DNA from: Okamejei kenojei
Taxonomy: Eukaryota
Assembly: GCA_035221665.1 (NCBI GenBank)
Contig: CM069137.1
Coordinates: 76,818,001-76,882,000, forward strand
Direction: 5' to 3'
DNA: 64,000 nucleotides
Position 1 is the first letter of the stretch, and each line of letters starts with the position of its first letter. This document shows, piece by piece, positions 15,001 to 21,000 of this stretch. Position numbers: made by a program.

Positions 15001-18000
15001 CTTAAATTTGGATGCGATGTGTCACTTTCAGTAGATAAATTCAATGATGATGTAAGCCGAGCAATGAAATTGACGAGGTAACATGGGACCAAGCTCACCA
15101 TTCAAAGTCTATGCATTCCATCATGCGATAATGATTTCAGATGGCAAGATTTGAATCACACACATCTATTATAATTTCAAGCTTGAATAAGATTTGCAAT
15201 CATGGATTCCGATATTACCGAGTAATTTTGAATAGTAACAATTGTATATCATCCAAAACACTGCATTTTCCACATATTAAGAGGAAGACACATGCATTAA
15301 AGTACCAAATATAATATTGCACTATCAATCTAATTATGGATGGATTATAGTATTAATTTTTGGCTTACTTTTAGGGAAAACTTCCCCATCAACCTTAGTT
15401 GCACAAGATAAACAGCAGCTGTACGCAAATACATTACTTGTGCTCAAGTAAGTTGGGTTAGTTGAGTTCCACATGTTACATTATGGAGCTGAAGGCATGT
15501 TATAGGGGGGCAGTACATGCAAAAATAAACAAGTTGTTATTCAGTTTGCTCAGCCACTTTGTCAGTGGAAGGTCACACAAATGGCTTGACATTAAATTCT
15601 TAAAATAACATTAATATAGCAGAGTAATTAATTTTGTTTACTCTGATGTAAATGAAATGTAAATGGGGTGCCCAGAAAAACATTAGAATTTATCAATATA
15701 GTACATTGAATCAGTATTGCATATACAGTACGTGCACTTGATGTTTTGTGGTGCTTGAGAAACAAATATGAATGTTTACAATCAGGCATGGATTCTTATT
15801 GTGACTAAGTGCAACTTAGCCCATCTCACCTCGTAATAAGCCTCTCCCCTTGCTGGCTTCTTCAACTGGTGCCTTAGCATCTGTAGTGAAATAGTAACAT
15901 AATTATCAGTGCATCATTACTGTCTCACAAGTCAATAATTGTAAAGTTTTTTTCATAATTAAGGGGTAAAATGATGAGGCTAAAAAAGTGTATTGCACTT
16001 AAATGCAAAATATATCATATATAATATATTACATATATTACGTATGAAATTATAAATGCCACACAAAAAATAATAAAAAATGATACTTTCATTTTTTTAA
16101 TATACTAAACGGAGGTGTATTCATGCAACCAGAGGAGAATTAACATGAAAAATATGTATTTGGTTAGAATGGGAGAAATATAAAACCATATGATTTGAAT
16201 GGTAATCGGTCTTTGCCTTACGAAATATAATGAAATGATTTAATTAATTCATAATCCTGTTAATAGCAACATTAAAGCAATTTAAGACAATTTATCCTTG
16301 GGAGCCATCAGACCATGTGGACAAAACATAAGCCACAGACATGAATTTACATTTAACACGACAGCCACAATACATCATGCACATAAACACAACTCGCATT
16401 GCCAGGAGAAACAACTACGTTTAACAAAGATGAACACACACAACATAAAGGAACATTTATCCATTTTTCAAAGCACAAGATATGAAAAATCAGTTTGGTA
16501 GGTGTGCAGCAGTCCTCTCACCTCGGCGTCTGTAAGGCTTTGAAGGAGTCTCAACTGCACCTTCATGCAATTCTTCATCATCTTCATACTCCCAATCAGC
16601 TGATGAGCCACCTTCCTCCTCTTCAGTTAATTCCCATTCCCAGTCTTCTTTGCCCTGTAATTCTTCTATTGACATTTCTTCTGATTCTATTTCATAGTCT
16701 TCTGATGATGATATTCTCTCAGACGGAAGTTTTTTCATCTGTACTATCTCCTGCTCTTTATCTGTAGGACTCTCTTTGTCAACTTTAAGATGTGCGGCAT
16801 CTCTGGGAGTGAATATTTTCTTTACAGGAATTTGCTGTGGCTTTTCTTCAGCTGCAACTTCCCTTGAGGGAACCTTCTTCAATTCTAGATGATCTTTTTG
16901 ATCTTCCAAAACTGGAGTTTTTCTCTTTCCAGTTTTATATTGTACTGTATCAGACAAATCCCTGGGAGTCAGTACTTTCATCATTGGTATTTTGTGTTGC
17001 TTTTCTTCCACAGCAACACCTTTTGAAGATACCTTCTTAATTTCAATATGATCTTTCTCAGCTTCTGGTACTGGAGTTTTTCCCTTTCCAGATTTATAAT
17101 GTACTGTATCTGACAAATCCCTGGGAGTCAGTATTTTCTTGATTGGTATTTGATGTGTTTTTTCTTCTGCGGCAGCTTCTCTTGAGGAAACCTTTTTAAA
17201 TTCTATATGATCTTGATCTTTCAAAACGGGAATTCTTTCCTTTCCAGTTTTATAATGTATACTATCAGACGTATCTCTGGGTGTCAGTACTTTCTTCATT
17301 GGTATTTTCTGTGGCTTTTCTTCCACAGCAACACCTTTTGAAGAGATCTTTATTTCAATATGATCTTTCTCTGCTTCTGACACTGGGACATTTTCCTTTC
17401 CAGTTTTAAGGTGTGGAATATCAGGTGTATCTCTTGGGGTCAATACTTTCCTCACAGGTTTTTTCTGTAACTTTTCTTCGACCACAATTTTTTTTGATGG
17501 GACTTTCTTCACCTCTGCACGATCCTGCAGTTCCTCTGGTTCCTGTAAAACTGTTTTTTTATTTTTGTCAATTTTAGTATCTGCGATTGATTGTTCATCT
17601 TTAGAATCTGCTGTAAGCTTTTTTGTCGATTTGTCAATCTTTTGTGGTTCTTTTTCACCTACTGATTTTCCTCTTGAGCGAATATCTTTCAGGTGAACCA
17701 TTTCTTGTTCTTCTTTTGTAATAGGAAATTTCCCTTCACTAATTCTTAAAGGAATTTCATCCTCTTTTTCTTCACAGGGAAATGTCTTAGGAACACCAAT
17801 TTCTTCTGCAGTGAATTCAGGTACTCGTTTTGATGCAGGTGTTTCTAAAACGATCTCCCTAGGTACTCCCTCAATTGGATAAAAATCTATATTTTTCAAT
17901 ATTTCTTTTTTAGGAGATGGTTCACTTCTTATTTTGGGAATACCAATTTTAGTGAGATTAGGTGTTTCTGTTTTCTCCCCAACAGGCTGAGGAAGTGTTC

Positions 18001-21000
18001 TACTTATTTTCAATTTCTCATGCTTTTCTTCTTCTTCCTTTTCTACAAATAATTTACTAGGCTTTGTCAATGGTGGGGTCCTCTCCTTCTCTGTATCAGG
18101 AACTTCAGCCTGCCTTATTAATTTTTTCCCTCTATCTCCTATCTTTACAGAAGCTGCTTCCGATCTAGTTACAAACATGGATTTCTCTTCATTTTTTCCA
18201 GCTTTAGGAACATCAACCTTTTCCAGAATCATTTGTTCGTCTGTATCTTTTTCATCAATACATATTTCATTAAGTTTCTTTGACACACCATGTTTTTCTT
18301 TTAAAGCTTCTTTTTTAGGGGTTATCTCAAACTTTTTGAATTGTACCTTATCTGCTTCTTCCTTTTGTCTGGAAACATAATCGAGTTTCTTAGATTGTGC
18401 AACTGGTTCTTTATCCACTTCCTTGAGTGCTACCTTACTCATTATTTTTGGTAATATTTTCAAAGCTTCATCTTTTACAATGGAGATTTCCCCTTTATCT
18501 TTGTCTATTTTATGAATCTCATCAACCACCTGTACAACTACTTCTCTTTTTATTTCTATCTCTTGCAAAATGATACCTGTTGTTTTTGGCAAGGTATAAC
18601 ATTCATCAGCTTCAATTTCTTTAGGACTTTCAGTAGATCTCCTGAGTTTTAATCCTACGTCTTTGTCATCTTCTTTATGAAATCTTGCTTCTTCATCTTT
18701 CTCTTTCTCTGGAATCTTACTACGTTTCTTCAAAATTGAAATTTCTCTTTCTTCTATTTCTTTTGGAATATGCACTGCAGGTTTTAGTTTCAAAGATGAC
18801 TTGGGTTGTTCTGCGGCTACAAAGGTTTCATATTCAATTTAGTGACAAATTAACAAAGAATTTTGCAATCTCCTAAAAGAAGTCTAACATCAAAACAGTC
18901 TCCAAACCACACTGGTTCACCAAATTAAAACAGACCATGAAATCTCTCCATAGTCAACAACATTTCAAAATGAACACATTAACAGAAAGAATCACAAGAC
19001 AAGTTACATAAATTGTAACTACTTAAATGGACTGAAGAGACAATTTGATACAACTAGTACACAACATTTAGGATCCAGGGGAAATCTATATAATTTTAGT
19101 TTTACACACAAAATTGAACAAAGATTGAATATGTTGAATATTTTTAAGTTTAAATACAATAAGGTTTGAGAAATTGTACCTTTAAGAGGTTTCTTGACTG
19201 GTCCTGGCGCACTGATAGGAAGTGTAGTAGTAGGTACTTCTTCAGTTTCTGTCACTTTGAAAATAAAAAACAACAATTTTATTTACCTGAAAGTCAAATC
19301 TTAAAATTCAATATTATGTGGAAATGTGACCCTCCTATTAATAATAACATTTTAAAAAAATGTATGCATCCTATTGGATGACCCATTATAATTCTGTTTC
19401 ATTTTCCTTCTATTTAAGTCTTATTAAAGTCATACACCTTATTAAATATCTCCGATAACTAACATCCCGACATTTTCAAAGAAGCAATCACATAGATTGA
19501 ATTTCAAAATTATCTATTAATATTTTCATTTACGATTACATTTTATTACTAATTAGATTGCAAACGTATCTCCTGGTGGTAAAATGAAAATGAGGGACAG
19601 TTAAGTTAATGAAAAATTAAGAAGAACAAGCACCATTAATTGAGCAATGAAATGTTGAATTGAAAGAAGCATGAACAACAGCAAATGAGGAAATATGATG
19701 AAATGTAGAATGTTGGATGGATTTTTCACATGATTCAAGATGATGAGTGACATTCATTTGTATACCTTCCTCTGGTTCAAGATCTTGTTTCACTGTAGCA
19801 GTGACTAAATCAGCTTTAGGTTCAATCTTCTCGGCAACTGTAGTCACTTCAAAACATTATTATTCAAATGTTTAGTTTTTATCTATATGACATGTCCAAG
19901 TAACTGGACATGTCCAATAATCAGTTATAAAAGTAATTTTGGAACATTGTTAATAAAAGTCAGTTGAATGGCCATTTCTTAATCTTGTTATGAAAAATTT
20001 TAAAGGAACAATTGAGTGTTAATTATTTATATAGTTTTAATAATCATGCACAGGCAAAGATAATGGCTAAAATAATGGCAAATATATAGCTATAAAAATC
20101 TGGCCTATGAAAAATCATCCAAAAATCTACATCAATCATTGGGCAAGAAATAAAATAATTACCATAGAATCTTACTTCCTACATATTTTTATCTGGTTAA
20201 TCCAAATTTGGCCTTGTAAGCCAACGTCCACATTTTACTCTGATGGATGGTAAGAAACCTTATATCCAGTAATAATTGGTGAACCTCTACTTTGATCCCA
20301 TTAACAGATTAGTTTTGTGAAGCATTCCTAAAATGCTTAAGTTTGTAAACTTTTGTACTCCATAATAAATGTCAACAATAAGATGTAAATCAAGACAAGA
20401 AAGAAGAGATCCAAGACAACTAGAAAACATTTGAAATTTGGCTGATAACTTAGACATAAAATTATTACGACAAGCTGCGTGCCTTGTAAGGAACGTCCTT
20501 AAAAATCAACATTCAACATTTCCTATTCCCTTCCACTCATTGTGAAAAGCAGCAGCTGCTTTTTAATAGAGTCTTCTAATAAAGTAATCCGATACCTTTC
20601 TGTGTAATAATTTGCATCTTCACTGGAGGTGCAACTTCAGTAAGTTTTGCACGTGGAATCTTCTTATCAGCATCAATAATTCTACTGGGTAATATTTTCT
20701 TGTCAACTTCAACAACTTCATCACGTAAAATCTTCTCTGTGGACTCAACAACTTCATCAGTTAAAATTATCTCATCAGCTTCATGTAAAATCTTCTCATC
20801 AGTTTCAATTATTTCTTCAGGGAACATGATCTTGTCCACCTGAATAGTTTCTTCAAGTAAAATCAATTCATCAGGCTCCGCACTTTCCTCATAGAAAACG
20901 GTTTCACCAACTTTGATAATTTCCTCACTTAAAATGTCTTCATCAGTCTCAACAACGTCCTTGGGTAAAATGATGTCATCAACCTGATTAGTTCCTCTGT

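What the first reader, a model, noticed from the sequence alone, without database searches (positions are those of the whole stretch)
16522..18816. 2.3-kb giant cassette exon at the distal end of PEVK
A 765-codon stop-free, frame-symmetric exon lies just before the two last conserved PEVK exons, where mammalian titin has only small exons (recalled). It is E/K-rich but not built from PPAK units. A single splicing decision would add about 765 disordered residues to the spring, a binary compliance switch (inference).
Basis: partly seen in the sequence, partly recalled or inferred. Interest (0 to 1): 0.75.

Follow-up and report, generated by a model that had tools for sequence, protein, structure and literature searches.

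The report
Giant charged exon in titin's spring
A 2.3-kb uninterrupted coding exon sits among the tiny exons at the far end of the elastic PEVK part of a titin gene and would add about 765 floppy, highly charged residues to the muscle spring; whether the animal can switch it on and off is not known.

Summary
On the minus strand, 18816..16522 is a 2295-nt AG/GT-bounded, phase 1-1 exon inside a 782-codon stop-free run. Shuffles of the window reach 173 codons at most; P(no stop) is about 6e-28. It lies between a 75-nt PEVK exon (19254..19180) and the last two PEVK exons (15880..15830; 14921..14526, which runs into an I-set Ig domain). All share its phase.

The 764-residue product is a near-neutral polyampholyte (42% charged, 7% Pro) and does not match a PPAK profile built from 17 neighbouring exons. 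It has five tandem 52-53-residue units and a Trp-bearing acidic tail. AlphaFold2 gives pLDDT 36.5.

The repeat units show pN/pS 0.38-0.55 in frame only. Simulated neutral decay always introduces stops. So it is a selected coding sequence, most likely a real titin exon and an extra disordered spring segment.

No homologue, family or paper was found. Giant titin models and vertebrate genomes could not be searched, so lineage restriction and cassette use remain untested.

The parts
16522..18816 (-). Giant exon: 2295 nt, phase 1-1. It encodes 764 whole codons (P0001) plus two split codons.
   Evidence: open frame of 782 codons, AG at 18818-17, GT at 16521-20, P(no stop) 5.6e-28; under simulated neutral decay, 0 of 1000 runs stay open.
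17468..18814 (-). Non-repetitive E/K-rich part, P0001 residues 1-449. It holds two short predicted helices (residues 90-100 and 117-128) and is otherwise coil.
16679..17467 (-). Five tandem 52-53-residue units (residues 450-712), each anchored on a T-P-R-D motif. The fifth unit is degenerate.
   Evidence: TRF period 159 nt, 4.3 copies, 74% matches, at 16799..17479; anchor spacing 52, 52, 53, 53; pN/pS 0.38-0.55 in frame only.
16565..16714 (-). Acidic tail (residues 701-750): net charge -22, no proline, and all 3 tryptophans of the exon.
19180..19254 (-). Upstream neighbour: 75-nt PEVK-type exon, phase 1-1. The intron to the giant exon is 363 nt.
15830..15880 (-). Downstream neighbour: 51-nt penultimate PEVK exon, phase 1-1. 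The intron from the giant exon is 641 nt.
14526..14921 (-). Last PEVK exon, 396 nt. It runs into the first distal I-set Ig domain.
   Evidence: I-set, E 4.8e-13; best PDB match Titin 3b43, E 6.1e-32.

Best explanation
This is a genuine internal coding exon of a vertebrate titin gene, spliced in phase 1-1 between small distal PEVK exons.

What it encodes: about 765 residues of non-PPAK, intrinsically disordered, nearly neutral polyampholyte. About a third of it (263 of 764 residues) is five tandem 52-53-residue units, and it ends in an acidic Trp-bearing tail.

How it works when included: it sits in series with the PEVK segment and adds about 290 nm of contour length per titin molecule (765 x 0.38 nm). 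That makes the I-band spring longer and more compliant, much as the N2B unique sequence does in cardiac titin.

Shown: the exon anatomy, the phase match with its neighbours, the composition, the repeats, and selection on the reading frame.

Inferred: inclusion in mRNA, disorder, and the spring role.

Undetermined: whether inclusion is constitutive or regulated. I put about 50% on each.
For: - Open frame of 782 codons, against at most 173 in 100 shuffles of the window.
- The ends of the open frame lie 7 and 10 codons beyond an AG and a GT.
- Same strand, order and phase as the flanking titin exons.
- The gene is titin-like. There are 17 or more small PEVK exons upstream. Downstream are I-set Ig exons; for the one at 14458..14928 the best PDB match is titin, while for the one at 13251..13658 titin ranks second, after cardiac myosin-binding protein C.
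- The repeat units differ at 17-31% of bases, yet pN/pS is 0.38-0.55 in frame, with 5 of 6 pairs at P<0.05. In the two other frames it is 0.62-1.06, with 0 of 12 pairs at P<0.05.
- Neutral-decay simulation at 0.05-0.3 substitutions per site: 0 of 1000 runs stay stop-free at each of four rates.
- Disorder: 42% charged residues, net charge per residue -0.008, hydropathy below the Uversky line, median proline spacing 9.5 residues. AlphaFold2 mean pLDDT is 36.5, with 744 of 764 residues below 50.
- The 0.38 nm per residue figure, and the 1613-residue (613 nm) mouse soleus PEVK, come from PMC7274174 (passages).
Against: - No transcript evidence of any kind is available here.
- No homologue was found in any search, so conservation between species is not shown.
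- The selection test uses non-independent pairs of one repeat family. The most similar pair (R2-R4) is not significant alone (P=0.16).
- The AlphaFold2 run used a single sequence, which is a weak basis.
- The elephant-shark study reports expressed PEVK segments of only 372-424 aa (heart) and 634-774 aa (skeletal muscle). It mentions no giant exon in the Results or the PEVK passages I read (PMC12241362). A 765-residue exon is therefore absent or skipped there.
Confidence: 0.72

Rival explanations
1. Binary cassette. The exon is real but optional. It is included in some muscles or stages and skipped in others, so one splice choice changes the spring length by about 290 nm.
For: - Phase 1-1, like every neighbour examined, so skipping keeps the frame.
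- From recall: the other large unique-sequence exons of titin's I-band (N2B, Novex-3) are tissue-specifically used.
- The upstream 363-nt intron has the highest TCTT density of the 20 introns examined (16.5 per kb against 7.2 window-wide). That is only about 6 motifs.
Against: - Splice-site features do not stand out from the neighbours.
- The downstream intron is TCTT-poor (4.7 per kb).
- The mammalian counterparts of this distal stretch are kept in all isoforms (PMC6469411, PMC7274174, passages).
- There are no expression data.
Confidence: 0.36
2. Signalling or docking insert rather than a plain spring. The repeated T-P-R-D-bearing units would be phosphorylation sites, and the Trp-acidic tail a partner-binding site, as in the N2B and N2A hubs.
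For: - There are 16 Ser/Thr-Pro sites, five of them at the same position in the five units.
- The three Trp residues are confined to a 50-residue stretch of net charge -22.
- Purifying selection acts on the units.
Against: - No domain or motif family matched.
- No partner can be tested with these tools.
- pN/pS of 0.4-0.5 is no stronger than expected for a length- or composition-constrained disordered chain.
Confidence: 0.2
3. Not part of titin mRNA: a nested independent gene, a repeat-derived ORF, or an unexpressed relic.
For: No homologue or transcript links it to titin directly.
Against: - The frame ends coincide with in-phase splice sites.
- The first Met lies about 125 residues in.
- Only two sub-threshold Pfam matches, neither a transposon family.
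- No similarity to the rest of the window at E<2.8.
- The frame is held open by selection.
Confidence: 0.05
4. Alternative terminal exon in the manner of Novex-3. The donor is ignored, translation stops 10 codons into the intron, and a truncated titin ends in the I-band.
For: A stop lies 10 codons past the donor. Two ATTAAA motifs lie 277 and 420 nt downstream.
Against: The ATTAAA/AATAAA density there (3.1 per kb) is at the window background (2.5 per kb), and there is no AATAAA. The donor is a good GAG|GTGAGA.
Confidence: 0.04

Closest known systems
Titin N2B unique sequence (large I-band exon of cardiac titin)
   Same: Works alike. It is one large exon among small ones, encodes a long non-PEVK disordered stretch in series with the spring, and its inclusion lengthens and softens titin. 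Lengths of the N2B element, 876 aa in rat and 1302 aa in turtle, are given in PMC11033294 (passages).
   Different: Its position is between the proximal and middle Ig segments, not at the distal end of PEVK (recalled; layout in PMC12241362 introduction passage).
PEVK segment modules (PPAK repeats and E-rich motifs)
   Same: Same neighbourhood in the gene, same intron phase, charged and disordered. The acidic tail resembles an E-rich motif in composition.
   Different: - P+E+V+K is 46%, against about 70% quoted for PEVK (PMC12241362, passage) and 60-91% in this window's small exons.
- The PPAK profile score is -28 bits, no better than shuffles.
- The exon is 2295 nt, against 45-108 nt for the small exons.
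Novex-3 exon of titin
   Same: A very large unique-sequence exon in the I-band part of the gene (recalled; mentioned in PMC11033294, passage).
   Different: Novex-3 ends the protein. Here the frame runs into a good donor, and there is no excess of polyadenylation signals.
E/K-rich elastic segments of invertebrate connectin/titin-like proteins (recalled; not checked in any call)
   Same: Charged non-PEVK spring sequence built partly of tandem units.
   Different: A different lineage and gene architecture. No comparison was run.

Membership tests
Exon of the titin gene | Lies on the coding strand, in order, between recognised titin exons | tested here: met
   PEVK exons run from 63461 down to 19180 and Ig exons run from 14921 downwards, all on the minus strand. 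The best PDB match of the Ig exon 14458..14928 is titin. For the Ig exon 13251..13658 titin ranks second, after cardiac myosin-binding protein C.
Exon of the titin gene | Splice sites and intron phase compatible with its neighbours | tested here: met
   AG and GT are present, and the exon is phase 1-1 like the 20 other exons examined.
Exon of the titin gene | Present in spliced titin transcripts | not testable with these tools
   No RNA data or vertebrate transcript collection was available.
PEVK segment (PPAK / E-rich modules) | About 70% P+E+V+K | tested here: not met
   46%. The 70% figure is from a PMC12241362 passage.
PEVK segment (PPAK / E-rich modules) | Built from PPAK-type repeats | tested here: not met
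   A profile of 17 local PPAK-type exons scores it -28 bits, and 152 of 200 shuffles score at least as high. The positive control scores 92 bits.
PEVK segment (PPAK / E-rich modules) | E-rich motif | tested here: inconclusive
   Residues 701-750 have net charge -22, but no E-rich reference profile was available.
N2B unique sequence | Position between the proximal and middle tandem Ig segments, sharing an exon with Ig domains | tested here: not met
   The exon lies between PEVK exons and holds no Ig domain.
N2B unique sequence | Sequence similarity to N2B-us | not tested
   No reference sequence was obtainable. The general searches found nothing.
Intrinsically disordered strong polyampholyte | High fraction of charged residues, low net charge, low hydropathy, no confident fold | tested here: met
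   Charged fraction 0.42, net charge per residue -0.008, hydropathy 0.386 against a boundary of 0.416. Mean pLDDT 36.5 (single sequence, weak).

The most novel reading that the evidence does not exclude
A lineage-restricted additional spring element of titin. It would have arisen inside the otherwise constitutive distal PEVK by repeat expansion, with no counterpart in chimaera, bony fish or tetrapods. It would be used as an on/off compliance module that also carries phosphorylatable units and a Trp-acidic docking tail.
Probability: 0.25. Interest if true: 0.65.

Novelty: new variant of a known kind. Interest (0 to 1): 0.45.

Why it matters
Titin's passive stiffness is set by the length of its disordered I-band segments. 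Known tuning works through many small PEVK exons, the Ig super-repeats and the N2B insert.

A single 765-residue non-PEVK insert at the distal PEVK end equals about 47% of the mouse soleus PEVK contour length (291 against 613 nm; PMC7274174). It is as long as the whole expressed skeletal PEVK of the elephant shark (634-774 aa; PMC12241362).

If it is expressed, it is a natural experiment on two points. One is how a non-proline polyampholyte behaves as a muscle spring. The other is how new spring modules arise. It would also matter for annotating titin in non-model vertebrates, where PEVK finders keyed to P/E/V/K content would truncate or miss it.

Tried and rejected
1. Homology searches with the exon translation alone all returned 0 hits.
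- phmmer against 1.84 billion representative proteins: 0 hits at E<=0.001.
- Word-indexed searches among proteins of 1338-3820, 420-1337 and 30-419 residues: 0 hits each.
- In those three searches only the roughly 8000 candidates sharing most words were scored, and E/K-rich words crowd the list. Proteins above 3820 residues, which include full titin models, were not candidates.

2. Family and structure libraries.
- Pfam gave two sub-threshold matches only: FAS_meander at 17 bits against a cut-off of 23.1, and GST_N_3 at 15.5 against 22.
- PDB sequences: 0 matches at E<=1.
- ESM Atlas: no usable hit.

3. Pfam on 4 small PEVK exons, the 645-nt exon and the upstream 75-nt exon found no PPAK family. 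The name 'PPAK/PEVK' for these exons therefore rests on composition and my recall of the motif.

4. Paralogy inside the window: tblastn of the exon against the window finds only itself, and the other matches have E>=2.8.

5. Splice-site strength and TCTT density as hints of regulated splicing were not discriminating.

6. Polyadenylation signals downstream are at background level.

7. Opposite strand: the two longest plus-strand frames inside the exon (129 and 110 aa) have no Pfam match. They are the mirror image of purine-rich codons.

8. Rfam on the whole window: 0 matches.

9. Single alpha-helix or coiled-coil reading: rejected. Proline occurs every 9.5 residues at the median, and only two helices of 11-12 residues are predicted.

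10. Literature: seven searches found no description of a giant exon at the distal PEVK end. Searches were poorly targeted and say little.

Left unchecked:
Every search was done exon by exon.
The exon tables of PMC6469411 and the exon maps and figures of PMC12241362, which I could not see, may bear on exon sizes.
- The organism could not be named with these tools. I did not take the window for human.
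Full report
**What is there.** The window carries the 3' part of the PEVK region and the first distal Ig exons of a titin-type gene on the minus strand. Small exons rich in P, E, V and K run from 63461 down to 19180. I-set Ig exons follow from 14921 downwards. For the Ig exon at 14458..14928 the best solved-structure match is titin (3b43, E 6.1e-32). For the Ig exon at 13251..13658 titin ranks second, at E 7.4e-27, after cardiac myosin-binding protein C. The window holds no N. No tool here names the organism, and I did not take the window for human.

**The observation.**
- The stop-to-stop frame 18838..16493 is 782 codons.
- An AG at 18818-17 and a GT at 16521-20 (GAG|GTGAGA) delimit a 2295-nt exon.
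- A second AG six bases inside is also in phase.
- The exon begins with two bases of a split codon and ends with one, so it is phase 1-1.
- The upstream exon 19254..19180 (75 nt), the downstream exon 15880..15830 (51 nt) and the last PEVK/Ig exon 14921..14526 (396 nt) have the same phase. So do the 17 further PEVK-type exons examined (16 small and one of 645 nt).
- Including or skipping the exon therefore keeps the frame.

**More than chance.**
- 100 shuffles of the window give stop-free runs with mean 130 and maximum 173 codons.
- With the exon's own base composition, the chance of 782 codons without a stop is 5.6e-28.
- The two other frames hold 54 and 81 stops.
- Codon-position bias is the same in all four parts of the exon.

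**The product.** P0001 has 764 residues: K 125, E 115, P 55.
- P+E+V+K is 46%. The fraction of charged residues is 0.42 and the net charge per residue is -0.008.
- Mean scaled hydropathy is 0.386, below the Uversky boundary of 0.416. Charges are no more segregated than in shuffles.
- Residues 450-712 are five tandem units of 52-53 residues, each with a T-P-R-D motif at the same place.
- Residues 701-750 have net charge -22 and no proline, and they hold all three tryptophans.
- AlphaFold2 without an alignment gives mean pLDDT 36.5. 744 of 764 residues are below 50, and only two helices of 11-12 residues appear. This is weak evidence, but it agrees with disorder and argues against a long single helix.
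- A profile built from 17 small PEVK exons of the window scores the exon at -28 bits, and 152 of 200 shuffles do at least as well. The same profile scores another large exon of the window (58576..57932) at 92 bits.

**Is it a selected coding sequence?** Units R1-R4 differ at 17-31% of bases.
- In the coding frame pN/pS is 0.38-0.55, and a synonymous excess is significant in 5 of 6 pairs. The pairs are not independent, and the R2-R4 pair alone has P=0.16.
- In the two shifted frames the ratio is 0.62-1.06 and 0 of 12 pairs are significant.
- I simulated neutral substitution on the exon at 0.05, 0.1, 0.16 and 0.3 changes per site. Each rate gave 8-33 stops on average, and 0 of 1000 runs stayed open.
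- The units show that much more change than 0.05 per site has accumulated, so the frame has been held open by selection.

**What it is not.**
- Pfam gives only two sub-threshold matches. PDB sequences give none at E<=1, and the ESM Atlas gives no usable hit.
- The exon has no paralogue elsewhere in the window.
- Rfam finds nothing in the window.
- The longest frames on the opposite strand have no family match and mirror the purine-rich codons.
- A stop lies 10 codons beyond the donor. However, polyadenylation-like hexamers downstream are at background level and none is AATAAA, so a Novex-3-like terminal exon is unlikely.

**Relatives elsewhere.** Searching the exon on its own returned nothing.
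- phmmer over 1.84 billion representative proteins found 0 hits.
- Three word-indexed searches found 0 hits in proteins of 30-3820 residues.
- These negatives are limited. Full titin models exceed the length window, low-complexity words crowd the candidate lists, and I could not verify that vertebrate titins are in the phmmer library.
All searches were made exon by exon.

**Literature.**
- The one paper found on cartilaginous-fish titin is PMC12241362. I read its abstract, outline, Results and the PEVK passages. It reports elephant-shark PEVK segments of 372-424 aa in heart and 634-774 aa in skeletal muscle. It mentions no giant exon in what I read.
- Its figures and supplements, which hold the exon maps, could not be seen.
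- In mouse, exons 219-225 together account for 190 residues (PMC7274174, passages). In mammals the last roughly 9 PEVK exons are the conserved ones kept in cardiac N2B titin (PMC6469411, passages).
- From recall, not tested: the mammalian counterparts of the two small flanking exons are adjacent. That would make the giant exon an insertion relative to mammals.
- Searches found no description of such an exon. Searches were poorly aimed.

**How it most likely works.** When included, the exon places about 765 disordered residues in series with PEVK.
- At 0.38 nm per residue (PMC7274174) this adds about 291 nm of contour length.
- That is about 47% of the mouse soleus PEVK (613 nm) and several times the rat cardiac PEVK (204 aa; PMC11033294).
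- It would lower titin-based passive force at a given sarcomere length. This part is inferred.

**Constitutive or optional?** This cannot be told.
- Its splice sites are ordinary for this gene: acceptor pyrimidine fraction 0.50 against 0.39-0.72, and donor 7 of 9 consensus matches against 6-8.
- The TCTT counts are too small to weigh.

**Repeated motifs.** The repeated Ser/Thr-Pro sites and the Trp-acidic tail may serve as modification or docking sites. This is a lead only.

**Verdict.**
- The reading 'real coding exon of titin, disordered extra spring' is well supported.
- The 'binary compliance switch' and the claim of no counterpart in other vertebrates are open.
- It is a new variant of a known kind, a unique-sequence spring insert of titin at a new position and with a new sequence. 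It is of moderate interest.

Noticed in passing
57932..58576 (-): A second large PEVK exon of 645 nt. It is made of 11 tandem 19-residue units and matches the local PPAK profile at 92 bits with 11 domains.
   Followed up: partly
20596..21090 (-): A candidate 495-nt phase 1-1 exon inside a 179-codon open frame. It is rich in E, D and I, with a recurring acidic pattern, and has no Pfam match. It is possibly an E-rich PEVK module. The boundaries were chosen from AG/GT and phase only.
   Followed up: partly
25353..42237 (-): About ten nearly identical 69-nt PEVK exons with similar flanking intron sequence. This indicates recent segmental duplication of exon-intron blocks.
   Followed up: no
8359..8958 (-), 28793..29377 (-), 38502..38834 (-), 10434..10799 (+): Intronic open frames of 100-200 codons that share a peptide stretch in two or more places, so they look like interspersed repeats. 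Pfam found nothing in the two that were tested. My impression that they are retroelement tails is recall only.
   Followed up: partly
16565..16714 (-): All three tryptophans of the exon lie in acidic contexts within 25 residues. They resemble Trp-acidic docking motifs known from cargo adaptors (recalled, untested).
   Followed up: no
18810..18818 (-): Two in-phase acceptor AGs lie 6 nt apart at the start of the giant exon. Using the second would drop two residues.
   Followed up: no
19766..19846, 21436..21507, 23466..23549 (-): Three further candidate small phase 1-1 exons (81, 72 and 84 nt) between the repetitive PEVK block and the giant exon. Their P+E+V+K content is lower than in the PPAK-type exons.
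   Followed up: no
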